64,000 nt of DNA, taken from positions 156,941 to 220,940 of the forward strand of contig CAZRDX010000007.1 of NCBI GenBank assembly GCA_964599235.1. Reading direction: 5' to 3'. Position numbers and translations under genes: made by a program. The notes beneath the pieces were generated by a model. It saw only the letters and a program-made list of their open reading frames with translations. It searched no databases and had not been told where the DNA came from. The stretch is from an uncultured Rikenellaceae bacterium. GTDB lineage: Bacteria > Bacteroidota > Bacteroidia > Bacteroidales > VadinHA17. Shown one piece after another: positions 20,030 to 61,811 of the stretch. Numbering within the stretch: position 1 is the stretch's first letter; each line of letters starts with the position of its first letter.

Positions 20030-20074
20030 CCCTCGTTGGAACGAAACTTTTGAAATAAAAAAGCACTCACATCC

Positions 20075-21517: not shown

Positions 21518-21532
21518 ATGATCCTCTCCCCG

Positions 21533-43710: not shown

Positions 43711-43745
43711 AAAGGAAGCCGGGAAATTCCCGGCTTCCTTTTTTC
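43711..43745. terminator. Bidirectional terminator between gltA and the export operon
   Basis: AAAGGAAGCCGGG-AAATT-CCCGGCTTCCTTT followed by a T-run. Confidence 0.88.
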
Positions 43746-43802: not shown

Positions 43803-44540
43803 TCATCTGATGAACTTTTCCCTCTTCTGAAGGTTGAGCAGGCCGGTAAGCAGGAAAAGGGTCCCGCCACTAAGAAGGAAAATACGGTTCCTGACGGTCA
43901 CCGCATGCCACAATGCCTCGTTCATGCGAGAAGGTATGTCGTAAGGGTTATGGAAGACGTTCCAGAAGCTTCTGTACAGGGCTTCTCCCAGGATGAACAT
44001 TCCCACACCCAGGACGACCAGCACCACGGCGGTGCCGGTGCCGCTGCGGATGATCGTGGAAAGCATGAAGGCCAGCATGCCGGTGAAGTACATGGGGACC
44101 ATCAGTTGGGCACTCACCTCAAAGATCCGTATCCGGTAGAGGGTGACGGAGGCGATCTCCGCAAAGAGCAACAACAGGAGATAGAGGATCAGATAAATGA
44201 TCACCAGTCTGACCAGCCACACCTTGTAACGGTAGTTGGGGATGCCGAACAGGATCTCCAGCACTCCCGCATCTTCATCATTCTGAATGCCAAAGACGGT
44301 GGGATAGAAAAGCATGAGGATGCCGGGAAGGATCAGAGCCCCGTAAATGAAAGGGGTTTCCACCGGGCTGCCGTCGTAGACCTTGAGGCCGGCAATGAGA
44401 AGAAAGACCAGGAAAGCCACCAGCACGAACCAGCCAAAGCGCTGGGCAAAGATGATCTTCACATTGTAACGGACCATATTCCGTATGAGAACGACGAGGT
44501 TCCTCACTTTTTTGTTTCTTTTTTTCGGACCAGTCATCAT
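43803..44540 (-). CDS. Small ABC-2-type permease-like membrane protein
   Basis: About 6 TM helices; NDEDAGVLEILFGIP resembles the ABC-2 ERExGTLELLxxxP motif; last gene of the operon. Confidence 0.65.
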   Translation of the reverse strand: MMTGPKKRNKKVRNLVVLIRNMVRYNVKIIFAQRFGWFVLVAFLVFLLIAGLKVYDGSPVETPFIYGALILPGILMLFYPTVFGIQNDEDAGVLEILFGIPNYRYKVWLVRLVIIYLILYLLLLLFAEIASVTLYRIRIFEVSAQLMVPMYFTGMLAFMLSTIIRSGTGTAVVLVVLGVGMFILGEALYRSFWNVFHNPYDIPSRMNEALWHAVTVRNRIFLLSGGTLFLLTGLLNLQKREKFIR

Positions 44541-44553: not shown

Positions 44554-47500
44554 TTACCGGATGTCTTTCAGCAGGCAGAGATAAGCGTCTTCGAGGAGGG
44601 GTGTGACCTCCAGGGCCTGTGGCAGGGGTTTTTCCCGTGCGATGAGGCGCACGCGTATCCGTCCGTTCACCTGCATATGATGGACCACCAGCCATTCGCC
44701 GGTTTTTTTTCTGAACTCCTCTTCGCTCACCTCCACCTGCCACACCTTGCCCCGGCCGAAGCGGGTCATCTCCTGGGGGTCGCCCAGATATTTCAGCTCA
44801 CCCCGGTCGATCACGGCCACACGGTTGCAGGAGCTGGCAATGTCTTCGATGATGTGGGTAGAGAAGAGAACGATGCGGTCGCGTGACAGCTCCACCAGCA
44901 GGTTACGGAAACGTATCCTCTCACGCGGGTCGAGGCCTGCGGTGGGTTCGTCCACCACGAGGATACGCGGCAGATGGAGAAGGATCTGTGCGATGCCGAT
45001 ACGTTGTTTCATTCCTCCCGAGAAGGAGCCGATCAATTCGTCGCGGTGGTCCACCATGTGCACGGCCCGCAAGACGTACTCCACACGCTTCTTGCGTGCG
45101 GCAGCATCGGTAAGACCTCTCAGCATCGCCTGGTAATCCAGGTAGTCGCCGGCGGTCATGTTCTCGTACATCCCGAACTCCTGCGGCAGGTAACCGATAT
45201 ATCCCTGCAGTTCCTCCCTTCTCTGCAGCGTATCGTGGCCGTTGATCCACACCTTGCCGTAGCTCTGATCGTAGATGCCGCATACGATACGCATGAGGGT
45301 GGTCTTACCGGCGCCGTTGGGACCGAGCAGGCCGAACATCCCCGTGCCGATCTCGAAGCTGATGCCTTTCAGGGCTTTGAAAGGTGTCCTTTTCCTGCCC
45401 AGCCAGGGGATGATCATCACCAGACGATAAAAGGCACGCCGCAGCCCGCCCAGACGCCCGGTGATCTCCTCTATGTTCACCTTATCACGGTACAGTCTCC
45501 CGGACACGGAAGAGACCGTCAGGGAGAAATACCACAGCAAAGCCGTCAGGATCACCAGGGCTTTGTTGTCCAGCGAGAAGAACAGCCATCCCAGCATCCC
45601 TGCGGGGAGGAACCAGTACAAAAGACGGTGTATCCATTTGTCAAGGCGAGGACCGCTCTTTTTGCCCGTTCTTCGGGAACGGTACTGCAGCATCTGCTGC
45701 CAGGGACGGCAGAGCCACAGGGTCGCCTTCCAGGTGAGGATGGTGAAGACGATCACCCAGAAAGCTTTTTCAAGGTGGATGAACGTGAACCATACCAGGA
45801 AGAGGCAGAGGGGCAGTTGCCACACGAGGTCGTGGAGATCTGCGATCGTGTGGTAGTTCTTTTCCCTGACGGCTTTTTCGCGGATGATCTTTCCCGCCTG
45901 CCACTGACGCACGAACCGGCCCGGGCGGTCGTAGATCTTTACCACGTTCCGGAGCCGGATGGTGATGGGATGCCCTTCGGGGATCAGGCGGGTGCCGGCA
46001 CTGCGGAGGCTGGTGAGCACGAACCAGGTCAGCGCCGGCACACCGACCGTCAGAAGGATCAGCAGGAGCATCCGCCACAGGAAAGAGGCACCGCCCTGCC
46101 AGATCAGCAGCATCCCCGACAGCCAGGACACGGCCATCAGGAGCCTGGTACGCAACGGAAGACGACGTATCCATATCAGGGCATTCTCCAGTCCCGAATA
46201 GAAGACCGGGATCACGACCAGGGTGAGGAGGGTGCTCACCGAGAGACCGCCGATGACGGTGATGGCAAAAGGTGCCCCGATGGCGCTGACATACTCCGCG
46301 TCACCCAGAGCCAGCGGCATCATGGCCACGATGGTGGTGATCGCCGTGATCAGGATGGGTCGCACACGCGAGATACCGGCAGTGAGGATCGCCCGTACCT
46401 TGCGGTTGCCTCGCTGCCTCAGGATGCTGGTGAAATCGATCAGGAGGATGCCGTTGTTAACGACGATACCGATCAGGATGATGAAGCCGGTGAGGGTATT
46501 GGCATTGAACAGGGCGGTACGGGTAAAGATCAGTGCCAGGAAAGAGCCGATGGCTGCCAGGGGGATGGAGAGCATCAGCACGAAGGGGACCGTCAGCGAC
46601 TCGAAGACCGAGGCCAGGATCATGAAGATCAGGAGGACGGCGGCCCCCATCAGGAAATAGAAGTCCCTGAACTGCTCTTCCGGCTTGACGATCTCCAGGC
46701 TCACTCCCGGCGGAAGATGATAGGCATGGAGGAGGGCGGCTACCTCGTCGCGGTAGGAGGCCAGCATTTTTTTTGAGCGGTAGGCTTCCCGCAAGAAAGC
46801 ATATCTGACGGAGATCTGTTTGCTTTGGTTCACGCGCTGGATGTTCCCCTTACCGCTGGCCACGATGATCCTGGCAAAGGTCTGCAGCTCGTGCAGGCTG
46901 CCTCCGCCGCCCCGGACCGGCAGATGGCGCAAGTCGTCCAGGGTCTTACGGGGAATCTGCCCCACGGTGTCGGGGCGGCTGTCGCGGAGGATGATATCGT
47001 AGAGGTCGCCTCCCTGCCTGAAAGTGACCCCCGCCCCCATCTCACCGGAGAAACTGTTCAGCGCCATGCTCACCGCCCCCAGGTCGATACCGTATTCGGT
47101 CATCCTCAGCGGATCGAAATGCAGATGGACCTCGGGACGCACCCAGGGGGAGCTCACCCAGACATAGCTGACCGACTCGAGGGTGTGCAGGAGGTAATCC
47201 AGGTCTTTGGCGACGCGTCGCATGACAGGATAGTCCTCCCCCCTGATGATGAGCTCCTCCCGGTCGCCGCCCATGCCCAGCAGACGCCGAAAACCGGACA
47301 TCATATCCGTGGCTGCTCCGGCGTCGCCGCCGGCCAGGCTCCCCTCTGTCCTGATGGTGGCATGGCTGACATTCCTGAACTTCGCACGTATGTCGCCTAT
47401 GATCTCTTCCATGCTGCGGCCGGTACGGCGGTAGTCTTCTTTCAGGTGGACCGTGATCACCGCTTCACCTGCACGGATGTTACTGATGACCATGCTGCTC

Positions 47501-49257
47501 TCTTCCATCTTCTCCACCGCCTCCTCGATGTTCCGCACCAGCCTGTCGGTGGCGGCGAGAGTAGCCCCCGTGACCATGTTCACACGGATGGTGAGGACCC
47601 GGCTTTTCTCCTCATTCACATTGCGAACATTGATCGACAAAGCGATGAAGATGGTGATGAAAAAGAGGGCCACCGCTCCCAACACCGTTGCGACAGGATG
47701 ACGCAGGCCCGTTTTGAGCAACAGGAGGTAGATCCTGATGATACGATGGCGGATGCTCATCGTCTCGTACAGCGCACCTTTTTTCTTTTGCCGGGAAAGA
47801 ACGGTGTGGGTCGTCATAGGGATGAAGAGCAGGGCCACCGCCAGCGACAACAACAGGGTGGAGATGATGGAGATGCTGATCTCCCGTCCCAGCAGCCTGA
47901 TGAGCATGTTCTGTGCAAACAGGAAAGGCACAAAGACCATCACCGTGGTGAGGGTGGCGGCGAAGACCGACCGCCATACTTCGCGTGTCCCTTCTGTCAC
48001 CGCAAGATCAGGCGGCTCACCCCGTGCCGACCGCCGGTAGATGTTCTCCAGCACCACCACGGAGTTGTCGAGCAGCATGCCGATGGCCAGGACCATCCCG
48101 ATGAGCGAGAAGCTGTTGAGGGTGATGTTGTAGAGATAGAAAAGATTGAACGCACCAAAGACGGAGATGGGCAGGGCGAGGGCCACGAAAGCCACCACGC
48201 GGATGTTCTTCAGGAAGATCCACAGCACCAGGATGGCCAGCAATCCGCCAGTCAGTGCCAGTCGCATGATCTGGTCGATGTTCCGTTCCATGGTTTCGGC
48301 CACGTTGGAGCGGATGATCACGGAAAGCCCCAGCGGCCGGTACTGTTCGTTGAGGTGGCGGATCACCTGTTCGGTCCTGTGGGACAGGTCGATGAGGTTG
48401 GACCGGGTATCGTTGACGAGGGCCACGGAGACGGCATTCTTTCCGTTGACACGGCTCAGGGAAGTCTCTTCCTTGAGGCCGAAATAGACCGTGGCCACGT
48501 CACGCAACAGGATGGGCCCCGGGGCGACGACGATGTTCTCTATCTGGCTCACATCCCGGAAATCGGAGGAGACATACACGAACCACCGTCTTTCCCCGTC
48601 GCGGACGCTGCCGGCGTAGGAGCGGTTTCCCGAGTTCTTTGCCAGGGCCGACCGTACCTGGGCGGGTGTCACGTGATAGATCTTGCAGGCTCCTTCGTCG
48701 AGACGCACCTCGATGCTTCTCTCCCTGCCGCCAAAGATCTGCACTCCGGCGATGCCGTCGATGTTTTCCAGGGCGGGGCGTATCTTCCTCTCGGTGAGCG
48801 CCCGCACCCTGTCCACATCCCCCTCGCCGGTCACCTGCAGCTCCATGAAACGTCTGTTGATACGGCCGGGATCGATGCGTACCACCATCACACGGAAACC
48901 CTCCGGGAGACGGGAACGCGCCGCATTCACCTTCTCCTGCAGCCGCAGATAGGCCAGACGGAAATTCGTCCTTTTCTTGAAAGAGACCCGGATCGTAGCA
49001 TTCCGGCTGTTGAGGTCGGAGCGCACCTCCTCGATCCCTTCGAGGGTGCTCACCACCTCCTCGAGAGGGATCACGGCCGCATTCTCCATGTAGACGGGAT
49101 CCACCTCCGTAGGCGAGATCACCCGGACGATCAGGTAAGGAAGCTCGGGACTGGGATAGAGTTCCACAGGAAGCTGTCGGTACGAGACATACCCCAGCAG
49201 TGTCAGCCCAGTGAAGAGCATGCTGATCAGTACTTTCCTGCGGATGATGAAGTCCAT
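44554..49257 (-). CDS. RND (AcrB/MdtB-like) permease fused to extra TM helices and a C-terminal ABC ATPase
   Basis: RND motifs LPVELYP, GMLLDNSVVVLENI, GIVVNNGILLID, RVRPILITAITT; ABC motifs GPNGAGKTT, YLPQ, FSGGMKQR, ILVVDEPT, STH. Confidence 0.9.
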   Translation of the reverse strand: MDFIIRRKVLISMLFTGLTLLGYVSYRQLPVELYPSPELPYLIVRVISPTEVDPVYMENAAVIPLEEVVSTLEGIEEVRSDLNSRNATIRVSFKKRTNFRLAYLRLQEKVNAARSRLPEGFRVMVVRIDPGRINRRFMELQVTGEGDVDRVRALTERKIRPALENIDGIAGVQIFGGRERSIEVRLDEGACKIYHVTPAQVRSALAKNSGNRSYAGSVRDGERRWFVYVSSDFRDVSQIENIVVAPGPILLRDVATVYFGLKEETSLSRVNGKNAVSVALVNDTRSNLIDLSHRTEQVIRHLNEQYRPLGLSVIIRSNVAETMERNIDQIMRLALTGGLLAILVLWIFLKNIRVVAFVALALPISVFGAFNLFYLYNITLNSFSLIGMVLAIGMLLDNSVVVLENIYRRSARGEPPDLAVTEGTREVWRSVFAATLTTVMVFVPFLFAQNMLIRLLGREISISIISTLLLSLAVALLFIPMTTHTVLSRQKKKGALYETMSIRHRIIRIYLLLLKTGLRHPVATVLGAVALFFITIFIALSINVRNVNEEKSRVLTIRVNMVTGATLAATDRLVRNIEEAVEKMEESSMVISNIRAGEAVITVHLKEDYRRTGRSMEEIIGDIRAKFRNVSHATIRTEGSLAGGDAGAATDMMSGFRRLLGMGGDREELIIRGEDYPVMRRVAKDLDYLLHTLESVSYVWVSSPWVRPEVHLHFDPLRMTEYGIDLGAVSMALNSFSGEMGAGVTFRQGGDLYDIILRDSRPDTVGQIPRKTLDDLRHLPVRGGGGSLHELQTFARIIVASGKGNIQRVNQSKQISVRYAFLREAYRSKKMLASYRDEVAALLHAYHLPPGVSLEIVKPEEQFRDFYFLMGAAVLLIFMILASVFESLTVPFVLMLSIPLAAIGSFLALIFTRTALFNANTLTGFIILIGIVVNNGILLIDFTSILRQRGNRKVRAILTAGISRVRPILITAITTIVAMMPLALGDAEYVSAIGAPFAITVIGGLSVSTLLTLVVIPVFYSGLENALIWIRRLPLRTRLLMAVSWLSGMLLIWQGGASFLWRMLLLILLTVGVPALTWFVLTSLRSAGTRLIPEGHPITIRLRNVVKIYDRPGRFVRQWQAGKIIREKAVREKNYHTIADLHDLVWQLPLCLFLVWFTFIHLEKAFWVIVFTILTWKATLWLCRPWQQMLQYRSRRTGKKSGPRLDKWIHRLLYWFLPAGMLGWLFFSLDNKALVILTALLWYFSLTVSSVSGRLYRDKVNIEEITGRLGGLRRAFYRLVMIIPWLGRKRTPFKALKGISFEIGTGMFGLLGPNGAGKTTLMRIVCGIYDQSYGKVWINGHDTLQRREELQGYIGYLPQEFGMYENMTAGDYLDYQAMLRGLTDAAARKKRVEYVLRAVHMVDHRDELIGSFSGGMKQRIGIAQILLHLPRILVVDEPTAGLDPRERIRFRNLLVELSRDRIVLFSTHIIEDIASSCNRVAVIDRGELKYLGDPQEMTRFGRGKVWQVEVSEEEFRKKTGEWLVVHHMQVNGRIRVRLIAREKPLPQALEVTPLLEDAYLCLLKDIR

Positions 49258-49270: not shown

Positions 49271-52200
49271 TCAGTCTTGCTGCAGTTTGCTGGCCGTTCT
49301 GCCGGTGATCTTCTCCTTGAACGTGTCGAGGATGTCGTAGATGCAGGGGATCACCACAAGGGTCAGGAGGGTGGAGGTGATGAGGCCGCCGATGACGGCC
49401 AGGGCCATGGAGGAGCGCAGGGCCACGTTCTCTCCGAAACCGATGATCAGTGGCAGCAGGGCCAGGACGGTGGTGATGCTGGTCATCAGGATGGGGCGTA
49501 TGCGTTGCCGGCCGGCCTCGATGATGGCCTCGTGGCGTGGTTTGCCCTCGCGTCGCAGCTGGTTGATGCGGTCGACCAGGATGATCGAGTCGTTCACCGC
49601 GATACCTGCCAGCAGGATCACGCCGATGAGAGCCATGATGTCGAGCGGTCTTCCCAGGATCCAGAAGAGCAGCACCGTCCCCACACCTGCCAGGGGGATG
49701 GTGAGCAGGATGGTGAAGGGATGCACCAGCGACTCGAACTGTGAGGCCAGCACCATGTAAACCAGAAGGATGGAGAGGAGCAGGGCGAAGCGCAGGTTTT
49801 CCATCGAAGCCTTCCGGCGGGCCTCTTCACCTGCCACACGGATACGGTATTCGCGGGGCAAGGTGATACCTGCCAGGACGGCCTCCACCTTTGCGGCCGT
49901 CTTGTCGAGGGCCTCCCCGTCCTCCGTCCGGGCGGTGATGCGTACGAGGCGGCTCTGGTTGCGGCGGAGGATCTCGCGCGGCAGGGTGGTCTGACGTATC
50001 TCCGCAACCTCACCCAGGGTGACGGTGGTATTGCCTTTCCTGATGGCAAGGTCGGCCAGGGCACGCCGGTCCATGGGAGGCAGCTTCACCACGACGGGCT
50101 CCATCCCGCCCCCCAGATCCACCGTGCCACTCTCCCGTCCTGAGAGTTTGTTGCGCAAGGTGGTGGCAACCGTAGCCACATCCAGATCGTATAGGCCGGC
50201 ACGCAGACGGTCGATCACCACCTCCAGGCCGGGGGCCCCCTCTTCCAGAGAGGTGCGGATGTTGAAGATACCTTCGACGGTCCCCATCCGTGACGCCACT
50301 TCCCGGGCAAGATGTTCCAGCACCGTGGGGTCCTCTCCCTGCACCTCCACCACCAGGGGGGCTTCGCCGGTACCCAGGATGGTACGCAAGGCTGTCTCGT
50401 CCCGCACGACCTCCAGTTTCATGCCTTCCACACCTCCGGCCACGCTGCTCAGGGCCCTGACCACTGCCACCGTACTCTCCGGGCGTTCTTTTTTCAGGAT
50501 GATCCGGAGGGTACCGGTGTTCTCTCCCGTGAAGACGCTCTCCCGGTCTCCCCCGCCACTTCTTTCAGCGCCTGCGTGGGTGTACAACATCTCCACGTCG
50601 TCGCCCAGGACTTCCCGCACGACTTCTTCCAGGTTATGCAGCGTTTGTGAAGTATAGGGCAGGGTGGTGCCTTCGGGCAGTGAGACCTTCACGAGGAGCT
50701 CGCTGCCCGGGGCCTGTGGCATGAAAACCATGCCGAGGCGCGGCAGGAGAAAGAAGGCGGCCGCCACCAGGACCACGGCGGCGGCGGTCACCGGCCAGCG
50801 ACGCCGCAACAGCCGCGCCAGAAAAGCGGCATAGCCTCTGAACTTCACCGAATAATGGGCAGGCTTCACCGGCCTGTGACGGAAAAGACGGTAATAAAGC
50901 ATGGGGATCAGGAAGATGGCCACAAAAAGGGAGGAGAGCAGCGAGAAGGCGACGGTCCAGGCCTCGTCCCTGAAGAGCTCGCCGGAAGCACCGTGCATGT
51001 ATACGATGGGCAGGAAGACGACAATGGTGGTGAGCGTGGAGGCGGTAATGGCGCCTCCCACCTCTGCCGTGCCGGTGACCGCCGCCTCCCGCACCCCCAG
51101 GCCGGCCTCGCTGTTGCGGAAAATATTCTCCATCACCACGATGGCATTGTCCACCAACATGCCGGCACCCAGCGCCAGTCCCCCCAGGGTCATGATGTTG
51201 AGCGTCAGACCACCGAAGTACATCAGGTTGAAGGTGGCAATGATCGAGACCGGGATGGCGAGGCTGATGATCAGCGTCACTCCCATACGTCGCAGAAAGA
51301 GGAAGAGCACCAGCACGGCCAGGAGGATACCCAGCAGGGCGGTATCCTTCACCTCACCCACGGCCGCGCTGATATAGGCTCCCTGGTCGTTCACGCGGAG
51401 CAGGTGGTAGCCGGTGAGGGTGGCTTCCATCTCCCGGAGGCGTTCGTTGACCTGTTCCACCGCTTTGACGGTATTGTAACGGGTCTCTTTGTAGAGGGAG
51501 AGGCCCAGGCAACGCCGGCCGTTAAGACGCACGATGCTTTCCGGAGCTTTGTTGTGGTAGGTGATGTCGGCCACCTCGTCCAGATAGACGGGCACCTTCG
51601 TCGCGCCGGTCGCGGAGGGCTGCCCTGTCTGGGGCACAGCTGCGGCGCTTTTGTATCCGACGATGATGTTGCGGAAGTCGTCGAGGCTGCGCAGCAGGCT
51701 CACCCCCTTGACGAGGTACTGCCGTCCCATCTCGGTGACGCTGCCACCGGAGACCGTGCGGTTGAAGCTCTGGATACGCTGTCCCACCCCGTCGAGTGTG
51801 AGGCCGTACGAGCGCAGACGGTACTCGTCGGTGGAGATCAGCACTTCGCCCTCCTCCTCTCCGGCGATCTCCACTGCGGCAATGCCTTCGAGACGTACCA
51901 GCTCATTGCGGAGGTAGCTCTCCGCCACCATCCGCAGACGGTTCATATCGGTGATGTTGTCGTGATAAAAGGCCAGCTGCATCACCGGCGCGCTGTTGGG
52001 ATCATGACGGGTGACGTTCAGCTCAGCGATATCACGGTCCTGTGCTATCGTGCCCAGCGCTTTCTGCAGATCCAGGAAGGCCTCGTCCATGTCTTTGTTC
52101 CAGGCATATTCCACCGTGATGCGCGCCCGGCCCGTACGACACTCGGAAAAAACCTGCACCACCCCGCGCTGCCGGATTGCCAGCGACTCGATGTTTTTCA

Positions 52201-52393
52201 CGAAACGCTTCTCCATCTCCTCCGGAGGACGCTCCCCCGCCCGTATCTCCACATAGAGACGCGGGTTGTTCAGGTCGGGGAAAAGATCGACACCCAGACG
52301 GTCGTAAGAGATCCACCCCAGCAGCACCACCGCCAGGGTGACCATCAGCACTGTGACAGGATGATCGACCGCGAACTGTACCAGTTTCTTCAT
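49271..52393 (-). CDS. RND efflux permease (AcrB/MdtC-like)
   Basis: LGVDLFPDLN, GMLVDNAIVVMENI, GIAVNDSIILVD, RIRPILMTSITT; 1040 aa. Confidence 0.95.
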   Translation of the reverse strand: MKKLVQFAVDHPVTVLMVTLAVVLLGWISYDRLGVDLFPDLNNPRLYVEIRAGERPPEEMEKRFVKNIESLAIRQRGVVQVFSECRTGRARITVEYAWNKDMDEAFLDLQKALGTIAQDRDIAELNVTRHDPNSAPVMQLAFYHDNITDMNRLRMVAESYLRNELVRLEGIAAVEIAGEEEGEVLISTDEYRLRSYGLTLDGVGQRIQSFNRTVSGGSVTEMGRQYLVKGVSLLRSLDDFRNIIVGYKSAAAVPQTGQPSATGATKVPVYLDEVADITYHNKAPESIVRLNGRRCLGLSLYKETRYNTVKAVEQVNERLREMEATLTGYHLLRVNDQGAYISAAVGEVKDTALLGILLAVLVLFLFLRRMGVTLIISLAIPVSIIATFNLMYFGGLTLNIMTLGGLALGAGMLVDNAIVVMENIFRNSEAGLGVREAAVTGTAEVGGAITASTLTTIVVFLPIVYMHGASGELFRDEAWTVAFSLLSSLFVAIFLIPMLYYRLFRHRPVKPAHYSVKFRGYAAFLARLLRRRWPVTAAAVVLVAAAFFLLPRLGMVFMPQAPGSELLVKVSLPEGTTLPYTSQTLHNLEEVVREVLGDDVEMLYTHAGAERSGGGDRESVFTGENTGTLRIILKKERPESTVAVVRALSSVAGGVEGMKLEVVRDETALRTILGTGEAPLVVEVQGEDPTVLEHLAREVASRMGTVEGIFNIRTSLEEGAPGLEVVIDRLRAGLYDLDVATVATTLRNKLSGRESGTVDLGGGMEPVVVKLPPMDRRALADLAIRKGNTTVTLGEVAEIRQTTLPREILRRNQSRLVRITARTEDGEALDKTAAKVEAVLAGITLPREYRIRVAGEEARRKASMENLRFALLLSILLVYMVLASQFESLVHPFTILLTIPLAGVGTVLLFWILGRPLDIMALIGVILLAGIAVNDSIILVDRINQLRREGKPRHEAIIEAGRQRIRPILMTSITTVLALLPLIIGFGENVALRSSMALAVIGGLITSTLLTLVVIPCIYDILDTFKEKITGRTASKLQQD

Positions 52394-52534: not shown

Positions 52535-53593
52535 TCACTGGATCACTTTCACTTTCGACTCATTGCGCAGGGTCTCGAAGCCTTTGATTACCAGGCTCAT
52601 GTTCTTCTCAAGGCCGTCCACCACCTCCACTTCCCCGGCGTTCTCAATGCCGGTGACGATCTTGCGTTCGCGGGCCAGGCCGTTCCGGACGATGAACACT
52701 CTTTTTCTTCCGTCCCTTTCCAGGATGTATTTCTTGGGGATGACGATGACACTGTCCTTGCGCCGGAGGATGATGTCCGTCTTCACGAACATGCCGGGGC
52801 GGAAGATCCTGTCGGGATTGTCGACCGTCATCACCACCTTGAAGGTACGGGTTTCGGTGCTGAGTGCCGGCGAGATCTCGCTGATGCGGCCGTAGAGGGT
52901 ATCTTCCCGGATCACATAGCTGACGATCCGCACCTGCTGACCCGTTTTCACTTGGGGAAGGTATTTCTCCGGCAGTTGCACCTCCGCATACATTTTCCGG
53001 TAATCCATCAGGCGGAACATCTCCTGTCCCGCCGGCAGCCGGACGCCGTCGGTATGGTGCGGCAGGTCGACAAGGTAACCGGTGAAAGGGGCCCGAACCT
53101 TCATCTTTTCCAGCTTGAGGAGGGTATTGCGGTACTCATTCTCGGCATTGATCCAGGCGATCTCCGCATTGCGCAGCTCGCGGAGGGTCACTCCTCCTTT
53201 TTCATAGAGTGATCTCTGTTTGTCGTACTCCTGTCTGGAGATCTCCATGTTCAGTTTCCTGGACCGCAGGTTGAGGTTGTATTCATATTCCTTGTCCTCC
53301 ATCACCACGATCACTGCATCTTTTTCCACCCTGTCCCCCATGCGATAGGGGCGGCCGGTGACAGGGTTGTTCTGCAGACGGTACCTGCCGGCCACCTCGT
53401 TCTTCACCACCGCCTCCCTGACCGGCATAAGGGTACCGCTGGTGGTGATAAGAGCCTCGATGCTTCCGGTGCCCACCTTCATCACCGTGACGGGCAGCGC
53501 TACCTCCTTCTCGTATCCGGGCTCCCATGTCCGGCACATAGTGAGCGAAAGCGAGATGCCGAGAAAAAAGGTCCATTGGATCATTTTCTTCAT
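52535..53593 (-). CDS. RND periplasmic adaptor (membrane fusion protein)
   Basis: Lipoyl halves, coiled hairpin, KVRAPFTG, TRTFKV, FRPGM, VEVVDGL. Alternative start at 53626. Confidence 0.92.
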   Translation of the reverse strand: MKKMIQWTFFLGISLSLTMCRTWEPGYEKEVALPVTVMKVGTGSIEALITTSGTLMPVREAVVKNEVAGRYRLQNNPVTGRPYRMGDRVEKDAVIVVMEDKEYEYNLNLRSRKLNMEISRQEYDKQRSLYEKGGVTLRELRNAEIAWINAENEYRNTLLKLEKMKVRAPFTGYLVDLPHHTDGVRLPAGQEMFRLMDYRKMYAEVQLPEKYLPQVKTGQQVRIVSYVIREDTLYGRISEISPALSTETRTFKVVMTVDNPDRIFRPGMFVKTDIILRRKDSVIVIPKKYILERDGRKRVFIVRNGLARERKIVTGIENAGEVEVVDGLEKNMSLVIKGFETLRNESKVKVIQ

Positions 53594-53632
53594 GGCTGAT
53601 GTTGTTTGGATGATCATTTTGTTCAATTTTTT

Positions 53633-55180
53633 TTATTGTTCTCCGGCCTCCGGAGTCCGGAGGAAAAGATTGGCTGGCACCAGGGGTTGTTGGTGCTCAA
53701 AGTCGTAAAGGGTCTGTATTTTCAGATTGAGCAGCTCCAGCTTGTAGTTGATGAGCGCCTGGGCATAGGCCATCTTTTTCTGGGACAGCTGGTTCTGGTA
53801 AAGGTTCAGGTCCATGCTCGTCAGGTCGCCGTTGCGGTAGCGTTCGAGGTTGATCTCATAAGTGAGCTCTGCATTCCTGACATTCTGTTTGGCTATGGAG
53901 ATCTGGTTGAGCTGGTTCCTGAGGTTCCTGTACACTTTTCTGATGTCGATGATGATCTGTTTCTTCTCCTCGTCGAGGTTGAGCTGCTGGCTTTCGATAA
54001 CGGCCTCCTGGGCGCGTATGCGTGCTTTCTTCTCTCCCCAGTCGAAGAGGGGGATGCGGAAAGAGAGGGCGACGCTGGGGTTGTTGGTGGGTTTGTCGTA
54101 GATCTGTCCCAGGGCCGGGTCGTCCCCCATGATGCCGATGGCGAGCCCCAGATCCCCCCGGAACTCGTTCATGGCCCGTGTACGTATCAGCTGGAACTGC
54201 GAGCTCTCGATGTCGATCTCCCGCTGGCGCAGCTCCATGCGCGAACTGAGACCGTACTGCACGGCTTTTTCGAGATCGACTTCCACCTGGGGTACGGAAA
54301 TATCGGCCAGGATGACGATCGAATCATGCAGGTCCATGCCGAGAAAACGCTTGAACTCATCCTTGGCGTTCTCCAGGTCCACCTTCTTGTTCTCCACCGC
54401 CGAGCGGGCCGTGGCCAGGTTCAGCTCAGCCTGGTAAAGCTCTTCTTTGGCCGACAATCCGGCCTCCACCTTGCGTTTGATGATCTCGTAGCTGCGTTGG
54501 GTATTGTCCAGCTCGGCACGGGCAATGTCAAGGCTCATCTGATAGAGATAGACATTGTAAAAAAAGCGTGTGACGTTCTTTTCCAGGTTCAGCTTCTGCA
54601 AGGCATAGCTGATGTTGGCATTCTCGTAGTTGAGCTCCAGCTCCCGCAGGTCGAGCTTCATCCGGTTGTAGGTGAAAAGGGGCTGGTTGTAGCTCAGGTA
54701 GAGACGGTTCGTAAAGCTCTCGTTCTGCTCGACGTCCCCCGTGAAATCCGACATGTTCTTCTGCCAACCGAAACGGTTGATCAGCGAGACGGTACCGTCG
54801 GTCCATTTGATGGGCTGATCGATACGGAAAGTACCGTATGACTGGAAGTTCCTGTTGGTGAACCACTTGTTGAAACGGTTGTCGAACATCCTGCTCTGAT
54901 CGAAGGTGACGGGGTTAAGGTCCATCGAGAACTTCGACCTGAGCGAGGCCCGCTGGGCGTTGAGCGATTCCCGGTAACGGGAGAGGTTGAGCAACGACCG
55001 CCGGATGTCGGGACTGTTGCGGCCCGCGATGGCGATCGACTTGTCCAGAGTGAGAGCCACCTGGGCACCGCTCTCCCGGAGCAGCATCGGAAACGACAAC
55101 AGGACCAGTGCGAGAAGGCACCTTTTCCACGAGGCGATCGGTTTCATGACGACATTTCTTTTCATGCTGTTCTTTTTCAT
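53633..55180 (-). CDS. TolC family outer-membrane factor
   Basis: LTLDKSIAIA, YNQPLF, RIPLFDWG, ERYRNG.LTS.DL; helical OEP repeats. Start uncertain (55180/55165/55147). Confidence 0.9.
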   Translation of the reverse strand: MKKNSMKRNVVMKPIASWKRCLLALVLLSFPMLLRESGAQVALTLDKSIAIAGRNSPDIRRSLLNLSRYRESLNAQRASLRSKFSMDLNPVTFDQSRMFDNRFNKWFTNRNFQSYGTFRIDQPIKWTDGTVSLINRFGWQKNMSDFTGDVEQNESFTNRLYLSYNQPLFTYNRMKLDLRELELNYENANISYALQKLNLEKNVTRFFYNVYLYQMSLDIARAELDNTQRSYEIIKRKVEAGLSAKEELYQAELNLATARSAVENKKVDLENAKDEFKRFLGMDLHDSIVILADISVPQVEVDLEKAVQYGLSSRMELRQREIDIESSQFQLIRTRAMNEFRGDLGLAIGIMGDDPALGQIYDKPTNNPSVALSFRIPLFDWGEKKARIRAQEAVIESQQLNLDEEKKQIIIDIRKVYRNLRNQLNQISIAKQNVRNAELTYEINLERYRNGDLTSMDLNLYQNQLSQKKMAYAQALINYKLELLNLKIQTLYDFEHQQPLVPANLFLRTPEAGEQ

Positions 55181-55225: not shown

Positions 55226-58200
55226 TCATTCTTTCATCAGTTTCACGGCATCGGCCACCACGATCCAGTAACCGGTCTTGTCGGAGAGTTCGATGACAGC
55301 GGTATCAGCAGGAAAGTAATAGAATCCCAGGCTGTTCCATCCGGGACTGCTGCCTCTGAGCACCAGCGAGGTCTCATCGACCACATCGCCGTGACGGATG
55401 CGGAACTCATACCTGTTGTCCCCCCGTCTGTTGTTCCAGCGGAATTTTCTGTAGTCGAGGTAATAGTAGACGGTGTAATACCCTGCTTCCGGCACGGGGA
55501 CTTTCCAGGTGGCCTTTTTCTTCCCCTCACCGGCGCGGACGAACCAGGCCGAACGTACGAACCTGCCGTAGAAAGCATTGCTGGTGGTCAGGGTCCAGTT
55601 GATCGGCCGCCACCATGAAAACCCGGAATATTTTTTCCCCTGTTGTTTGGACTTCACCAGCAGTCTGTAGAAAAGGCCTTCGTTGCCGGGTTCCGTGAGA
55701 GAAAAACCCGGATCCTCGTTATCCACCAGGAGGGTTCCCTCGGGTATGTAACGGAACTGATCCGCCGGGAAGGTCACGCTTCCCCTCTCGGGGGGGTACG
55801 TCAGCACGGTATGATCCACAACAGGATCCTCGTAAAGGATCATGGGGATGTTGCGGGAGACCATGGTGACATAGGTCACTCCGCCTCTGGTCCCGTCCAC
55901 CAGATAACGGATCCTGCGGGCCTGGCGGGCACCGAACCATACCACATGCTCGACGGGCGGATCGAGGCCCTCGAAGAGGATCCTCACCGCGCCGCTCCCC
56001 TCCCCTTTGTTGGCGATGGTGACCGAAAAAAGCCACCGTACATACCCCTCCTCCGTCACCCTGGTAAAACGGGCCTGAGAAAAAAGATAGGCAGGGAGGC
56101 TTTTGCCGGAATACCAGTTCTCCAGGTATTTCCCCAACGGATAGCCGGACAGCTGTTCCAGGTCTTCCAGCAAAGTATCGAAGGGGACCTTCGAGAACCA
56201 TCTTTGTTCCAGCCACCGGTGCAGGAAAGTATCCAACACTTCCTCCTCTTCCAGGTGGGCTTTCACTGCCAAGAAGAACATCTCTCCCTTCAGGCGTATG
56301 ACATTGTCCAGGATATCTTGTCCGGAGGGGGTGGTCAACAGTTCGCGGAAGCTTTTGTTCTGCAGTGCCATGTTGGCTCGTTCATCCTCACTCAGACCCG
56401 TATAGCGCCGTACCCAGTCGTTGCCTGTACCCACCCACGGCACTTTCAGGTAAGCTTCCATCACCCGGTTCATCACCGGCCAGCTGGAGGAGCTGAGGAA
56501 AAAACGGTGGTCGAAATATTCCGGGAATATGTTCAGCTCATTGGGGCGGGAGTTCAGCGCCCCTGCTCCCCCCGCCACCCTGCGCAGATTGTACTGAACG
56601 GTCTCCGTCAGGAACAGGTAAAAGAAACTGTTGAGAACGGTACCCATCATCTCCTTTTCCGTTCTTTTCTCCCGCGACCATCTGGACCATCTTTTCAGAT
56701 TCTCGAAATACCCCGAGAAGTTGGCCTGATAATGGGCTGCTCCTTTTTCCTCCATGAAGACGATGGCGGGCTGTACATTCTCCATGGCACCCATCCAAAG
56801 ATGCTGGTAGGAATGGAACTGGATGGGCACCTCCACCAGCGAGAAAGTGCGAAAAGGATAGTGCAGTCCCAGCTTGTTCTCGTATTCCTGCATCCTTTCC
56901 CGCAGGATCTTACGGATGGTATCATTGTCCAGCCTGGGCAGGGAACCCACAAAATAATCATGCCCCCGGAGGGTAAAGACCCTGAAGAGGATGCTGTCGG
57001 AGGGTGTAGGCAGGCTGTCGACGGTGAGACGGTGCTCCACATAATCCCCGATGGCCAGTGAGATCTGCGGCAGCAGGGTGTCACAAATGAAAGTGATGCC
57101 GTCCCCTTCGCGGCGGGCCGTACCCTGGCTGATGACACGGCTGCTGTCGATCCCCTCCACATGGAGACGGAAACGGATGAAGTCTTTTCTGAACCACCCC
57201 GGATGACGGGGACTATAAGTGGTGCCGGTCACGGGATACCAGAGTGTCTCAGGAGTCAGCAACACATAATCCGGCGTGACAAAGGCAAAGGAGGATGCCA
57301 CTTTCACCCCTCCCAGGAGATGGGGCATGCGGAAAGTGTCGATGTCGGGATAGCAGATACGGTCATCGATGGTCCCCGCATAGCGAAGATCCAGCGAGAG
57401 GGTATCCCCCGGCCGGAGCGGATGAGGTGGGGTCACCAGCAACAGGTGCAGCCGGCGTTGCCAGGCGACCTTCTTCCCGCCGGCCGCGAGAGAAGAGACA
57501 TGCAGACCGGGGTTGAGGCTCAGCACCACCCTGTCGACGACCGTGTCGTTGTCATTGACCAGCAACATATGGGATGTGAGAGCAAGATGGCGACCCTGAT
57601 GACGGAGCCCGATACGGTGTTCCTTCACCGACAGTGCAGGCCGTCTTGCATAGGCATCATTGAGTCCGAGCAGGCGGGCACGCAGCTCTCTCTCCTCCTG
57701 ACGCAGATAGAGATGCTGCCAGGCAGCCCCACCTGCAGCCGCCAGAAAGAAAAAAGCCAGCCCCAGTGAGACCACCCGCTCCCACCCCGCAGCGGGAAGA
57801 CGCCGCAACAGAAAGACCGTCAAAAAAACAAAGGAGACCCCAAGAAAAGAATAGAAAAGACGCTGGAAAAGAAAATCTTCCCAACGGTCAAAACCGGTGA
57901 TGCCGGACTTCAGCATCGGCATTTCCCATCCGGAAAAGTCGAAAAGGCCACCGGCACGCCCCTTCAGGTAAAATAGCACCAGGGCCAGGTATCCCAGCAC
58001 GAGAAGGAAAGTGACCGCCTGGTTGCGCAACAGGGTCATCAGCAGAAAGGCAAGACCCACGATGAAAAGCAACGTGGGCAGGACCAGGAACAGGAGGTAC
58101 TCAAAATAGGCAGCCACATCGAGCGAGGCCTGCCCGGAGATGATGTTGAAGACCGTCACCACAGCCATCAGCAGGAGGTCGGTCACGAGGAAAACCAGCA

Positions 58201-59466: not shown

Positions 59467-59619
59467 GATATTTTTGTAAATGACCGTTACATAAAAATAG
59501 CCATCCCACCGGTCAATCACCTGTCACATTTCCCTGTCTCTCCAAGGACCGGGGCCCTGTCTTCCCTGATATCATTCAGAAACTTTCCGTTCCTCCCTGT
59601 TTCATCCTTAACAACGTAT

Positions 59620-59646
59620 GACGTATGGGGTTATTGTTTTGTTACA
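59620..59646 (-). promoter_or_regulatory. ECF-sigma-type promoter candidate (TGTAAC-N17-CGTC)
   Basis: Minus strand reads TGTAAC AAAACAATAACCCCATA CGTC, about 150 bp upstream of the export operon. Confidence 0.5.
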
Positions 59647-59653
59647 AGAATCG

Positions 59654-59667
59654 AAAAAAAAAAAAAA
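59654..59667. repeat. A14 homopolymer
   Basis: 14 consecutive A residues, 7 bp from the putative ECF -35 element. Confidence 0.9.
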
Positions 59668-59699
59668 TTTTCAGTGCATTTTTCGGGGATGGTGCCCGC

Positions 59700-60845: not shown

Positions 60846-60870
60846 GTTATTTTCGGGGAAACGCTGCGGC

Positions 60871-61773: not shown

Positions 61774-61811
61774 CATCCCCTCCTCCGACTGATTTTCCTA
61801 TCTTCGCCACG

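What the first reader, a model, noticed from the sequence alone, without database searches (positions are those of the whole stretch)
44554..46200. ABC ATPase fused to an RND permease and split by a ~185-aa membrane insertion at its A-loop
Seen: after the last RND helix come ~2 extra TM segments, then ITIRLRNVVKIY (45931-45966), which matches the first strand of the stand-alone ATPase (EITIRSLRKVY). In the stand-alone protein only 5 residues (PNGHV) separate this from ALEEIDLDIGTGIFGLLGPNGAGKS. In the fusion, 185 residues (45376-45930) with ~4 hydrophobic helices intervene before ALKGISFEIGTGMFGLLGPNGAGKT. Walker A/B, Q-loop, signature and H-loop are intact, and the RND TM4 Asp (GMLLDNS) is retained. 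Inference: a membrane domain is inserted inside the nucleotide-binding domain next to the adenine-stacking aromatic residue and could couple ATP binding directly to membrane movements. I do not know this topology from any characterised ABC protein.
Basis: partly seen in the sequence, partly recalled or inferred. Interest (0 to 1): 0.8.

Follow-up and report, generated by a model that had tools for sequence, protein, structure and literature searches.

The report
RND pump fused to split ABC ATPase
One 1567-residue protein joins a proton-type (RND) efflux pump to an ATP-type (ABC) motor whose first strand is separated from the rest by four membrane helices. This layout is conserved in many Bacteroidota and has not, as far as I could find, been described for any studied transporter.

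Summary
ORF 44554-49257 (-) is one continuous 1567-aa protein: RND permease (aa 1-1021), a two-helix hairpin, the strand ITIRLRNVVKIY (aa 1098-1109), a 185-aa segment with four hydrophobic helices, then a complete ABC ATPase.

The same layout occurs in 14 full-length metagenomic proteins and 22 genome loci from Bacteroidota and Latescibacterota.

- **Strand identity.** The distal strand is as conserved as the ATPase core. In 33 of 35 family members it is the best match, among about 1270 upstream windows, to strand 1 of stand-alone relatives (+10 to +16 bits). The segment next to the ATPase scores like background.
- **Structure.** AlphaFold2 models it as a confident paired beta-strand, and every other strand lies in the ATPase region.
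- **Topology.** Loop charges place the strand and the ATPase in the cytoplasm.
- **Operon.** A conserved seven-gene operon also encodes a second RND, an adaptor, an outer-membrane channel, a 245-aa permease with a type V ABC fold, and a second ATPase-permease pair.

Most likely this is an ATP-driven exporter tethered to an RND pump. The function is inferred, not shown. The nearest precedent is the soluble 30-aa insertion at the same site in CFTR NBD1.

The parts
44554..49257 (-). Whole fusion gene: RND permease, 2-TM hairpin, NBD strand 1, 4-TM insert, rest of the ABC ATPase, C-terminal domain (1567 aa).
   Evidence: Continuous ORF. Pfam ACR_tran 2-1021 and ABC_tran 1296-1440. The same continuous ORF is found in 22 genome loci.
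46195..49257 (-). RND permease domain ('RND2'), aa 1-1021. TM4 is GMLLD397N; TM10 is GIVVN934N935.
   Evidence: Pfam ACR_tran, 565 bits, covering profile positions 3-1018 of 1021. Alignment to E. coli AcrB: D407 kept, D408 to N, K940 to N, N941 is N, R971 and T978 kept.
46009..46155 (-). Extra helical hairpin TM13-TM14 (aa 1035-1083) after the last RND helix.
   Evidence: Hydropathy. AF2 helices 15-35 and 39-68 in model numbering. The outer turn is 3 residues with no K/R across the family.
45931..45966 (-). Displaced strand 1 of the NBD, ITIRLRNVVKIY (aa 1098-1109). It ends in the A-loop Tyr1109, 202 residues before Walker A.
   Evidence: Family conservation: I 0.96, K 1.00, Y 0.96. Best of 1275 upstream windows against a profile of stand-alone relatives, +11.2 bits, z 7.5. 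The homologous strand is best in 32 of 34 homologs. AF2 strand at 80-89, pLDDT block 87.
45847..45930 (-). Family-specific motif DRxxRFxR(E/Q)W followed by a charged amphipathic helix (aa 1110-1137); cytoplasmic.
   Evidence: Conservation 0.65, with W1119 at 0.93. AF2 helix 94-112. The cytoplasmic stretch holds 13.4 K+R on average.
45484..45846 (-). Four transmembrane helices (two hairpins) inserted between strands 1 and 2 of the NBD (aa 1138-1258).
   Evidence: AF2 helices 118-141, 145-177, 181-208 and 212-238. Mean hydropathy 0.9-1.6; outer turns of 3 residues; inner loop with 4.4 K+R. The distance from strand 1 to Walker A stays at 190-203 aa across the family.
45382..45483 (-). Cytoplasmic juxtamembrane segment (aa 1259-1292) with the conserved motif GR(F/L)xx(L/I)RRxxYR...IPxIGKKKxPF, leading into strand 2.
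   Evidence: Conserved. AF2 models it as helix 250-262 then coil, not a strand. It adds only +1.1 bits as a strand 1 candidate.
44728..45381 (-). Rest of the ABC NBD (aa 1293-1510): strand 2, Walker A 1312-1319, Q-loop 1357-1362, signature 1412-1419, Walker B and Glu1437, D-loop, His1468.
   Evidence: Foldseek best matches are ABC NBDs: TM_1403 (4yer), LptB, ABCA1/4/7.
44557..44727 (-). C-terminal domain of the ATPase (aa 1511-1567), shared with the stand-alone paralogue.
   Evidence: The BLASTP alignment to the stand-alone ATPase runs to the end. AF2 strands at 485-519.
43803..44540 (-). 245-aa six-helix membrane protein 13 nt downstream; probable type V (ABC-2) permease partner of the fused NBD. 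It carries the near-invariant cytoplasmic motif FGIQNDxDxxxLEILFGIPNYRYK.
   Evidence: Present downstream of the fusion in all 21 Bacteroidota loci. AF2 model pLDDT 76, pTM 0.78. Best Foldseek matches are PmtCD, NosY (TM 0.64), ABCG5/8 and ABCG2. Pfam ABC2_membrane hits are weak. Sources name it 'hypothetical protein'.
49271..52393 (-). Partner RND permease 'RND1' (1040 aa), 13 nt upstream of the fusion gene.
   Evidence: Pfam ACR_tran, 700 bits. Conserved synteny. TM4 is D/N and TM10 is N/D.
52535..53626 (-). Periplasmic adaptor (membrane fusion protein).
   Evidence: Pfam HlyD_D23 and HlyD_3. Conserved synteny.
53633..55180 (-). Outer-membrane factor (TolC-like).
   Evidence: Pfam OEP, 147 bits. 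Conserved synteny in Bacteroidota. Absent from the Latescibacterota cluster L084.
55226..58546 (-). 1106-aa ABC-2 permease with a very large non-membrane region ending in a Golvesin_C-like domain.
   Evidence: Pfam ABC2_membrane_2 at 68-192 and Golvesin_C at 983-1104. Its C-terminus lies just upstream of the OEP gene in 20 of 22 loci. It is also present in L083 and L084.
58543..59520 (-). Stand-alone ABC ATPase with a contiguous strand 1 (EITIRSLRKVY); paralogue of the fused NBD (41% identity). First gene of the operon.
   Evidence: An equivalent gene is present in L083 and L084.
43711..43741 (.). 14-bp perfect hairpin between the convergent 245-aa gene and citrate synthase; probable bidirectional terminator that ends the operon.

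Best explanation
The gene encodes a real, conserved single polypeptide. An RND permease is followed by a membrane-pinned, catalytically competent ABC ATPase. The first beta-strand of the ATPase carries the adenine-stacking Tyr1109 and is encoded 185 residues upstream of the rest of the domain. Two transmembrane hairpins emerge from the tip of the strand 1 / strand 2 hairpin, and a third hairpin precedes strand 1. As a result the NBD is tied to the membrane by three chain crossings right at its nucleotide-binding edge.

Shown or strongly supported:
- The fusion is continuous.
- The distal strand is the NBD's strand 1.
- The topology is cytoplasm-in.
- The ATPase motifs are intact.
- The seven-gene operon is conserved.

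Inferred: the fused NBD docks on the strongly conserved cytoplasmic helix of the downstream 245-aa type V (ABC-2) permease. It may act together with the upstream stand-alone ATPase and its large ABC-2 permease. It then works as an ATP-driven exporter or flippase held next to the RND1/RND2 pump. The ABC module would move substrate from the cytoplasm or inner leaflet to the periplasmic side. The RND pair, the adaptor and the outer-membrane channel would then expel it across the outer membrane. On this reading the inserted helices act mainly as a rigid tether and positioning domain.

My confidence is about 0.85 for the architecture and about 0.4 for the two-step relay function. The single figure of 0.6 given for this explanation is a compromise between the two.
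For: - **Continuity.** The ORF has no stop. The same ORF of 1550-1604 codons occurs in 22 genome loci and 14 metagenomic proteins.
- **Strand 1 identity, conservation.** Conservation is 0.74, against 0.77 for the NBD and 0.39-0.44 for the helices.
- **Strand 1 identity, curated families.** Splicing the distal strand onto the NBD extends NCBIfam GldA, LptB, NodI and FtsE alignments to profile position 2 and adds 4-5 bits over the native or a scrambled segment.
- **Strand 1 identity, own profile.** It is the best of about 1270 windows in 33 of 35 proteins, gaining 10-16 bits (z 7.5-13). The proximal segment gains at most 1.6 bits.
- **Structure.** AF2 gives mean pLDDT 80. Residues 1100-1109 are DSSP strand with a pLDDT block of 87. 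All other strands lie at model residues 273-519, so its pairing partner must be in the NBD or its C-terminal domain. The proximal segment is helix and coil.
- **Topology.** Inner loops hold 13.4, 4.4 and 10.2 K+R. Outer turns are 3 residues with 0.1-0.3 K+R.
- **Competent ATPase.** All motifs are invariant in the family.
- **Partner permease.** The 245-aa protein follows the fusion in 21 of 21 Bacteroidota loci. Its model matches type V ABC membrane domains. The Latescibacterota counterpart has weak ABC2_membrane hits.
- **Operon.** Gaps are 13 nt on both sides of the fusion gene, the cluster is conserved across two phyla, and a terminator hairpin follows the last gene.
- **Permissive site.** CFTR NBD1 tolerates an insertion of about 30 aa, and even a chain break, between strands 1 and 2 (PMC2217481).
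Against: - No coordinates of the model were available. The pairing of strand 1 with strand 2 is deduced from the DSSP assignment, not seen directly.
- The alignment behind the model is shallow (15 sequences) and pTM is 0.60. The relative placement of helices and NBD is therefore uncertain.
- AlphaFold may place a canonical-looking strand in the canonical position from learned priors.
- The Foldseek matches of the 245-aa protein have weak E-values (about 0.02), and Pfam ABC-2 hits are below threshold for the window's own copy.
- Nothing here shows contact between the NBD and that permease. Nothing identifies the substrate or the stoichiometry. One NBD per chain sits awkwardly with the usual RND trimer.
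- The two-step relay is an analogy from general knowledge of RND pumps taking substrate from the periplasm.
Confidence: 0.6

Rival explanations
1. ATP-driven or ATP-gated RND pump. ATP-dependent closure of the NBD would be passed through the inserted and preceding helical hairpins to the transmembrane domain of the fused RND2. ATP would then replace or gate the proton-driven cycle of that subunit.
For: - The fusion is covalent and strictly conserved.
- The helices leave the NBD at the A-loop edge, so nucleotide binding could move them.
- RND2 in every family member has Asn at the AcrB D408, K940 and N941 positions, leaving D407 as the only carboxylate.
- Partner RND1 usually keeps a second Asp at position 941, and an unrelated RND in one genome that also carries the cluster keeps K940.
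- These residues are central to proton coupling in AcrB (PMC4359379).
Against: - A dedicated type V permease and a second ATPase-permease pair are co-conserved. That gives the NBD an ordinary ABC partner.
- D407, R971 and T978 equivalents are retained in RND2, so proton coupling is not excluded.
- The inserted helices are poorly conserved in sequence (0.39), which is unlike a precise force-transmitting interface.
- No case of an ATP-driven RND is known.
Confidence: 0.13
2. The fused NBD pairs with the stand-alone ATPase, not with a second fusion chain. The two ABC-2 permeases (245 aa and 1106 aa) would form the matching heterodimeric membrane domain. One heterodimeric ABC transporter would then sit beside an RND trimer that contains a single RND2 subunit. 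This concerns the assembly and can hold together with the best explanation.
For: - The cluster always carries exactly two NBD genes and two ABC-2 permease genes, in Bacteroidota and in Latescibacterota.
- The two NBDs share 41% identity and the same C-terminal domain.
- It would resolve the mismatch between a trimeric RND and a dimeric ABC, by analogy with the MdtB2C heterotrimer (from my own knowledge, not checked here).
Against: - Both NBDs have fully canonical motifs, with no degenerate site of the kind common in heterodimers.
- In a distance tree the fused NBDs and the cluster's stand-alone ATPases are separate clades, not sisters.
- Gene order places each ATPase next to one permease, which fits two separate homodimeric systems equally well.
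Confidence: 0.3
3. ITIRLRNVVKIY is not part of the NBD. On this view the NBD either uses the adjacent segment (FYRLVMIIPWLGRKR) as strand 1 or lacks one. The distal strand would be a relic or would have another role.
For: - MAFFT aligned strand 1 of the stand-alone ATPase to the proximal segment.
- The proximal segment is itself conserved.
- Pairwise BLAST does not align the two first strands.
Against: - The proximal segment scores like background as strand 1 (+1.1 bits here, at most 1.6 in homologs). The distal strand gains 10-16 bits.
- The proximal segment is modelled as helix and coil and contains conserved Pro and Gly.
- The distal K-I-Y is nearly invariant, which a relic would not be.
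Confidence: 0.06
4. Artefact. A frameshift, misassembly or read-through would have joined an RND gene to a separate ABC gene.
For: None found.
Against: - The same continuous reading frame is found in 22 independent genome assemblies, including cultured strains (Prolixibacter bellariivorans, Draconibacterium mangrovi, Parabacteroides massiliensis, Marivirga tractuosa), and in 14 metagenomic proteins.
- Shorter database entries begin inside the RND domain or abut a contig end, so they are fragments of the fusion.
Confidence: 0.01

Closest known systems
CFTR (ABCC7) NBD1 'regulatory insertion', residues 404-435
   Same: [quoted passage not shown] CFTR severed at this site (1-432 plus 433-1480) still gates normally, so the site tolerates interruption (PMC2217481).
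   Different: The CFTR segment is about 30 residues, soluble, mobile and a phosphorylation target. Here the insert is about 180 residues with four membrane-spanning helices, and the protein is bacterial and fused to an RND pump.
ABC-2 / type V ABC exporters with separate subunits (NosFY, PmtCD; ABCG and ABCA in eukaryotes)
   Same: The NBD is closest to the DrrA and GldA type of ABC-2 ATPase. The downstream 245-aa protein models as a type V membrane domain with a conserved cytoplasmic helix after TM2.
   Different: In known members strand 1 is contiguous with the NBD, and the NBD is either free or joined end to end with its own membrane domain. None has helices inside the NBD or an RND domain attached. 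The six extra helices show no profile similarity to the 245-aa permease.
Heteromeric RND pumps encoded by tandem genes (E. coli MdtABC: MdtB and MdtC with one adaptor)
   Same: Two different RND genes lie in tandem behind one adaptor and one outer-membrane factor gene. The two paralogues differ in their transmembrane charged residues.
   Different: Neither MdtB nor MdtC carries an ATPase. Both RNDs here lack the Lys940 equivalent. Hetero-oligomer formation was not testable here.
MacAB-TolC, the tripartite ABC efflux pump
   Same: An ABC ATPase is used in a system with a periplasmic adaptor and an outer-membrane channel.
   Different: MacB is a type VII ABC protein: an N-terminal contiguous NBD, four helices and a large periplasmic domain, with no RND component. 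Here the ABC module is ABC-2-like and is attached to an RND permease.
ABC-type ATPases with large insertions (Rad50/SMC coiled coil, UvrA insertion domains, ABCF linker)
   Same: They show that the ABC ATPase fold can be assembled from segments far apart in the sequence (general knowledge, not tested here).
   Different: Those insertions are soluble and sit after Walker A or between lobes, not between strands 1 and 2. None is a membrane domain.

Membership tests
ABC ATPase (nucleotide-binding domain) | Walker A, Q-loop, signature, Walker B with catalytic Glu, D-loop and H-loop | tested here: met
   GPNGAGKT 1312-1319, LPQE 1357-1360, FSGGMKQR 1412-1419, ILVVDE1437, AGLD, H1468. These are invariant in 15 family members. 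Pfam ABC_tran scores 98.7 bits.
ABC ATPase (nucleotide-binding domain) | A-loop aromatic residue on strand 1 about 25 residues before Walker A, contiguous with strand 2 | tested here: not met
   Tyr1109 lies 202 residues before Walker A, and the range in the family is 190-203. NCBIfam alignments of the native sequence start at profile position 14-15, meaning that strand 1 is missing locally.
ABC ATPase (nucleotide-binding domain) | A strand homologous to strand 1 exists and completes the beta sheet | tested here: met
   It is the best of about 1270 windows in 33 of 35 proteins, gaining +10 to +16 bits. AF2 models a strand at 1100-1109 with the only possible partners in the NBD or its C-terminal domain. 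The pairing partner was not seen directly because no coordinates were available.
RND permease, AcrB/HAE1-like (Pfam ACR_tran) | Full-length match to the 12-helix, two-loop RND architecture | tested here: met
   ACR_tran, E 4.5e-169, covering profile positions 3-1018 of 1021.
RND permease, AcrB/HAE1-like (Pfam ACR_tran) | Transmembrane proton-relay residues D407, D408, K940 and R971 (AcrB numbering; PMC4359379) | tested here: not met
   In the alignment to E. coli AcrB, D407 and R971 (and T978) are kept, while D408 and K940 are Asn. This holds in every fused homolog examined.
Type V (ABC-2) ABC exporter membrane domain, for the 245-aa protein | Six-helix type V fold with an N-terminal interfacial helix and a coupling helix after TM2 | tested here: inconclusive
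   The top Foldseek matches of the AF2 model are almost all type V domains (PmtCD, NosY, ABCG5/8, ABCG2; TM 0.55-0.64, prob 1.0), but E is about 0.02. Pfam ABC2_membrane_3 is hit by only 2 of 20 orthologs. Hits are weak for the Latescibacterota counterpart.
Heteromeric RND pump (MdtBC-like) | Two distinct RND genes in tandem sharing one adaptor gene | tested here: met
   The order OEP, MFP, RND1, RND2-fusion is found in 20 of the 21 Bacteroidota loci (no OEP hit in L022); MFP, RND1 and the fusion are also present in the Latescibacterota locus L023.
Heteromeric RND pump (MdtBC-like) | Physical hetero-oligomer of the two RND proteins | not testable with these tools
   This needs co-purification or a multimer model.
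CFTR-type regulatory insertion | Short, soluble, mobile segment between strands 1 and 2 carrying a kinase site | tested here: not met
   The site is the same, but the insert here is about 180 aa with four hydrophobic helices.
MacB-type (type VII) tripartite ABC pump | N-terminal NBD, four helices and a large periplasmic domain in one chain | tested here: not met
   The domain order and content differ. Outer turns of the extra helices are only 3 residues.

The most novel reading that the evidence does not exclude
The inserted helices may be a mechanical link. ATP binding and hydrolysis at the split NBD would move the two inserted hairpins and the preceding hairpin against the transmembrane domain of the fused RND subunit. 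That subunit has lost the Lys940 and Asp408 relay positions. The pump would then be ATP-driven or ATP-gated, which would be the first RND transporter not run purely by the proton gradient.
Probability: 0.12. Interest if true: 0.95.

Novelty: new variant of a known kind. Interest (0 to 1): 0.75.

Why it matters
RND pumps run on the proton gradient and ABC transporters run on ATP. They are treated as separate classes of efflux machinery, and the ABC nucleotide-binding domain is treated as a compact, contiguous cytoplasmic module.

Here a conserved family breaks both habits, and cultured, sequenced strains carry it. The two machines are one polypeptide, and the nucleotide-binding domain is built around a membrane insert at its adenine-binding edge.

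- **If the ABC module only feeds the RND pump**, this is a natural, hard-wired example of two-step efflux across both membranes. It would make that long-discussed cooperation directly testable.
- **If the insert transmits force to the RND subunit**, it would be a new energy-coupling mode for the RND superfamily.

Either way, current annotation misses the architecture. The fusion is named 'efflux RND transporter permease subunit', and its 245-aa partner is 'hypothetical protein' with no Pfam family.

Tried and rejected
1. A word-index homolog search with the insert region found only one fragment, P0001. The exhaustive search was needed to find the family.
2. Pairwise BLAST of the two first strands was not significant.
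3. A plain MAFFT alignment placed the stand-alone strand 1 on the proximal segment. The profile tests rejected this placement.
4. I tested whether the six extra helices are a diverged ABC-2 membrane domain. hhalign against the 245-aa family gave probability below 1%, and there is no Pfam or NCBIfam hit in aa 1022-1292.
5. I looked for a stand-alone version of the insert-bearing ATPase. The shorter entries I examined (1 fragment, 15 of the hits) begin inside the RND domain or abut a contig end, or are frameshifted or chimeric calls; none is a clean free-standing insert-bearing ATPase.
6. A profile of the 245-aa protein against PDB sequences gave nothing useful.
It was repeated with proteins from a protein search.
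8. The window's own fusion protein is not on record in the contig collection.
9. Rfam and tRNA scans of the window found nothing.
10. Five literature searches for natural RND-ABC fusions or membrane insertions in an NBD found no description. The library is not complete, so this is absence of evidence only.
12. I considered residue covariation but did not run it. The sequences within reach were too few and too similar for a reliable result.
Full report
**What is there**

ORF 44554-49257 on the minus strand translates without interruption to 1567 aa.
- Pfam places a full-length RND permease (ACR_tran, 565 bits) at aa 2-1021 and an ABC ATPase (ABC_tran) at aa 1296-1440.
ITIRLRNVVKIY is aa 1098-1109 (nt 45931-45966), ALKGISF begins at aa 1295 (nt 45375), and 185 residues lie between them.
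- A hydropathy scan finds two hydrophobic segments after the last RND helix and four inside the 185-residue segment.
- Walker A, Q-loop, signature, Walker B with Glu1437, D-loop and His1468 are all present.
- The stand-alone ATPase used for comparison is 58543-59520 (-). It is 41% identical to the fused ATPase from strand 2 to the C-terminus.
- BLAST does not align the two first strands by itself.

**It is a family, not an accident**

- An exhaustive profile-free search with aa 1030-1300 against 1.84 billion cluster representatives found 92 proteins. At least 14 of them are full-length, at 1550-1585 aa.
- A scan of one genome per species found the complete C-terminal region in 23 genomes. These include Prolixibacter bellariivorans, Draconibacterium mangrovi, Parabacteroides massiliensis and Marivirga tractuosa, many Bacteroidales and Marinilabiliales MAGs, and Latescibacterota.
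- In 22 of these loci the fusion is one continuous reading frame. That excludes a frameshift or misassembly.
- The 16 shorter database entries I inspected begin inside the RND domain, abut a contig end, or are frameshifted or chimeric calls. I found no free-standing version of the insert-bearing ATPase.
- Sources name these proteins only 'efflux RND transporter permease subunit' or 'AcrB / ABC-type ATPase subunit'.

**Is the distal strand the missing strand 1 of the ATPase?**

Four tests say yes.

1. *Conservation.* In 28 aligned family members the strand has a mean commonest-residue frequency of 0.74. That is almost the same as the NBD core (0.77) and far above the neighbouring helices (0.39-0.44). 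Ile1100, Lys1107 and Tyr1109 are at 0.96-1.00. A family-specific motif, DRxxRFxR(E/Q)W, follows it.
2. *Curated families.* NCBIfam models that include strand 1 (GldA, LptB, NodI) align the native sequence only from profile position 14-15 onward. Splicing the distal strand onto strand 2 extends these alignments to profile position 2. It adds about 4-5 bits over both the native proximal segment and a scrambled control.
3. *An unbiased scan.* I built a profile from 29 stand-alone relatives. I then spliced every 18-residue window upstream of strand 2 onto the NBD and scored each construct.
   - In the window's protein, aa 1095-1112 is the best of 1275 windows (+11.2 bits, z 7.5). The native proximal segment gains +1.1 bits.
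   - In 32 of 34 homologs the homologous strand, 190-203 residues before Walker A, is again the best window (+10 to +16 bits). The proximal segment gains at most 1.6 bits.
4. *Structure prediction.* AlphaFold2 was run on the C-terminal 547 aa with a 15-sequence alignment (mean pLDDT 80, pTM 0.60).
   - It models aa 1100-1109 as a beta-strand with a pLDDT block of 87.
   - Every other strand lies at model residues 273-519, which is the NBD and its C-terminal domain.
   - A DSSP strand needs a partner, so that partner must be there.
   - The proximal segment is modelled as helix and coil.

I could not obtain coordinates, so the exact partner strand is inferred, not observed. Foldseek matches of the model are ABC NBDs: TM_1403, LptB and ABCA1/4/7.

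**Is the insert in the membrane?**

The model has six long helices outside the NBD. One hairpin comes before strand 1 and two hairpins come after it. Across the family:
- The three outer turns are 3 residues long and hold 0.1-0.3 Lys+Arg.
- The three inner stretches hold 13.4, 4.4 and 10.2 Lys+Arg.

This is a clear positive-inside pattern. It puts strand 1 and the NBD in the cytoplasm, consistent with the cytoplasmic C-terminus of an RND permease. The insert varies little in length but is weakly conserved in sequence. It has no detectable relative outside the family.

**Context**

The fusion gene sits in a tight operon running from 59520 to 43803:
- a stand-alone ABC ATPase;
- a 1106-aa ABC-2 permease with a huge extra region ending in a Golvesin_C-like domain;
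- an outer-membrane factor;
- a periplasmic adaptor;
- RND1;
- the RND2 fusion;
- a 245-aa membrane protein.

Gaps are 13 nt on both sides of the fusion gene, and a 14-bp hairpin follows the last gene.

Conservation of the cluster:
- The order OEP, MFP, RND1, fusion, 245-aa gene is conserved in the 19 Bacteroidota loci that span it. One more lacks only an OEP hit, and one short contig holds only the last two genes.
- The large permease lies just upstream in 20 of 22 loci.
- The whole cluster, with the first ATPase, is seen in a distant Bacteroidota contig. It is also seen, without the outer-membrane factor, in a marine Latescibacterota contig.

The 245-aa protein:
- It has no Pfam family and is named 'hypothetical' everywhere.
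- Its AlphaFold model (pLDDT 76, pTM 0.78) matches almost only type V ABC membrane domains: PmtCD, NosY, ABCG5/8 and ABCG2, with TM 0.55-0.64.
- Its most conserved part is a cytoplasmic helix after TM2, FGIQNDxDxxxLEILFGIPNYRYK. That is where type V permeases carry their coupling helix.

Other points:
- The six extra helices of the fusion show no profile similarity to this permease.
- The fused NBDs form one clade. The cluster's stand-alone ATPases form another clade within the same ABC-2 ATPase group.
- The rest of the window is ordinary Bacteroidota chromosome, with SusC/SusD pairs and a T9SS-sorted giant subtilase.

**The RND halves**

Aligned to E. coli AcrB, both RND proteins keep the D407, R971 and T978 equivalents, but both have Asn at D408 and K940.
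- RND1 has Asp at position 941 in the window and in about two thirds of the loci where the motif was read, and Asn in the others.
- RND2, the fused one, has Asn at 941 in every member examined.
- An unrelated RND pump in one genome that also carries the cluster keeps K940.

These positions are central to proton coupling in AcrB (PMC4359379). The fused subunit has a single carboxylate in its transmembrane core.

**How it most likely works**

*Shown or strongly supported.* It is one chain. The ATPase is complete and competent-looking, and its strand 1 and A-loop Tyr are encoded 185 residues upstream. Two membrane hairpins leave the tip of the strand 1 / strand 2 hairpin. A conserved set of partners surrounds it.

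*Inferred.* The NBD docks on the 245-aa type V permease, and possibly works with the second ATPase-permease pair. It forms an ATP-driven exporter or flippase held beside the RND1/RND2 pump. Substrate would be handed from the cytoplasmic side to the RND pump and then out through the adaptor and channel. The extra helices would act as a three-point tether. I give about 0.85 to the architecture and about 0.4 to this function.

*Rivals.*
- The helices transmit ATP-driven movement to the relay-poor RND2, giving an ATP-driven or ATP-gated RND (about 0.13).
- The fused NBD heterodimerises with the stand-alone ATPase (about 0.3). This is a question of assembly that is compatible with the main reading.
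- The distal strand is not part of the NBD (about 0.06).
- The fusion is an artefact (about 0.01).

**Comparison with what is known**

The closest precedent for the insertion site is the regulatory insertion of CFTR NBD1, residues 404-435. It lies between strands 1 and 2, and CFTR cut at this site still functions (PMC2217481). That insertion is short and soluble.

Other ABC-type ATPases carry large insertions (Rad50/SMC, UvrA, ABCF; general knowledge). Those insertions are elsewhere in the fold and are soluble. MacAB-TolC combines an ABC motor with an adaptor and a channel, but it has a different fold and no RND. MdtABC shows tandem RND paralogues without an ATPase.

Five literature searches found no description of a natural RND-ABC fusion or of membrane helices inside an NBD. 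The library is incomplete, so this is not proof of absence.

**Verdict**

The functional coupling is open. I class it as a new variant of known kinds: RND pump plus ABC-2 ATPase. Interest is high because the architecture is unexpected, conserved, present in cultured strains and testable.

Noticed in passing
window 46435-46470 and 48043-48081 (fusion); 49271-52393 (RND1): Both RND paralogues lack the AcrB Lys940 and Asp408 equivalents (both Asn). RND1 mostly has Asp at position 941. The fused RND2 always has Asn there, leaving one carboxylate (D397) in its transmembrane core. An unrelated RND in one genome that also carries the cluster (L083) keeps Lys940.
   Followed up: partly
window 55226-58546 (-): A 1106-aa protein has an N-terminal ABC-2 permease region and about 800 further residues ending in a Golvesin_C-like domain. 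NCBIfam has no model for it. It is conserved just upstream of the efflux genes in 20 of 22 related loci. One homolog has a faint Peptidase_M1 hit.
   Followed up: partly
window 43803-44540 (-): The 245-aa partner protein belongs to a large family: 5762 clusters with E <= 0.001 in the search, the best 120 at about 1e-108. No member shown has a Pfam domain, and all named ones are 'hypothetical'. The cytoplasmic motif QNDxDxxxLEILFGIPNYRYK is nearly invariant.
   Followed up: partly
window 58543-59520 (-): The ORF of the stand-alone ATPase starts at a GTG and has no ATG before strand 1. Orthologs are 297-303 aa against 325 here, so the true start is probably further downstream. The gene overlaps the next gene by 4 nt.
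   Followed up: no
window 43711-43741: A perfect 14-bp stem with a 3-nt loop lies between the convergent 245-aa gene and the citrate synthase gene (42381-43688, +). It looks like a bidirectional terminator.
   Followed up: no
window 15486-29065 (+): A SusC-like and a SusD-like gene are followed by a Fib_succ_major protein and a 2515-aa subtilase with Ig-like repeats and a T9SS sorting tail. This resembles a polysaccharide-utilisation locus built around a giant secreted protease. A second SusD/SusC pair lies at 5873-10270 (-).
   Followed up: no
window 13134-15368 (+), 59625-60704 (+), 60847-61776 (-), 61716-63581 (-): These long ORFs (744, 359, 309 and 621 aa) have no Pfam match at the thresholds used. 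Overlapping ORFs on the opposite strand make some of the calls uncertain.
   Followed up: no
window aa ~290-310 of the fusion (nt ~48330-48390) and homologs P0032, L002: A segment of the RND porter domain (for example SHRTEQVIRHLNEQYRPL) repeatedly scores as the second-best strand-1-like window. It outranks the true strand in two homologs. It is a chance resemblance, but it shows the limit of short-motif scoring.
   Followed up: yes
L016 (CAYFVQ010000257.1): One locus carrying the full cluster is labelled 'uncultured Eubacteriales'. All other carriers are Bacteroidota or Latescibacterota, so this is probably a binning error.
   Followed up: no
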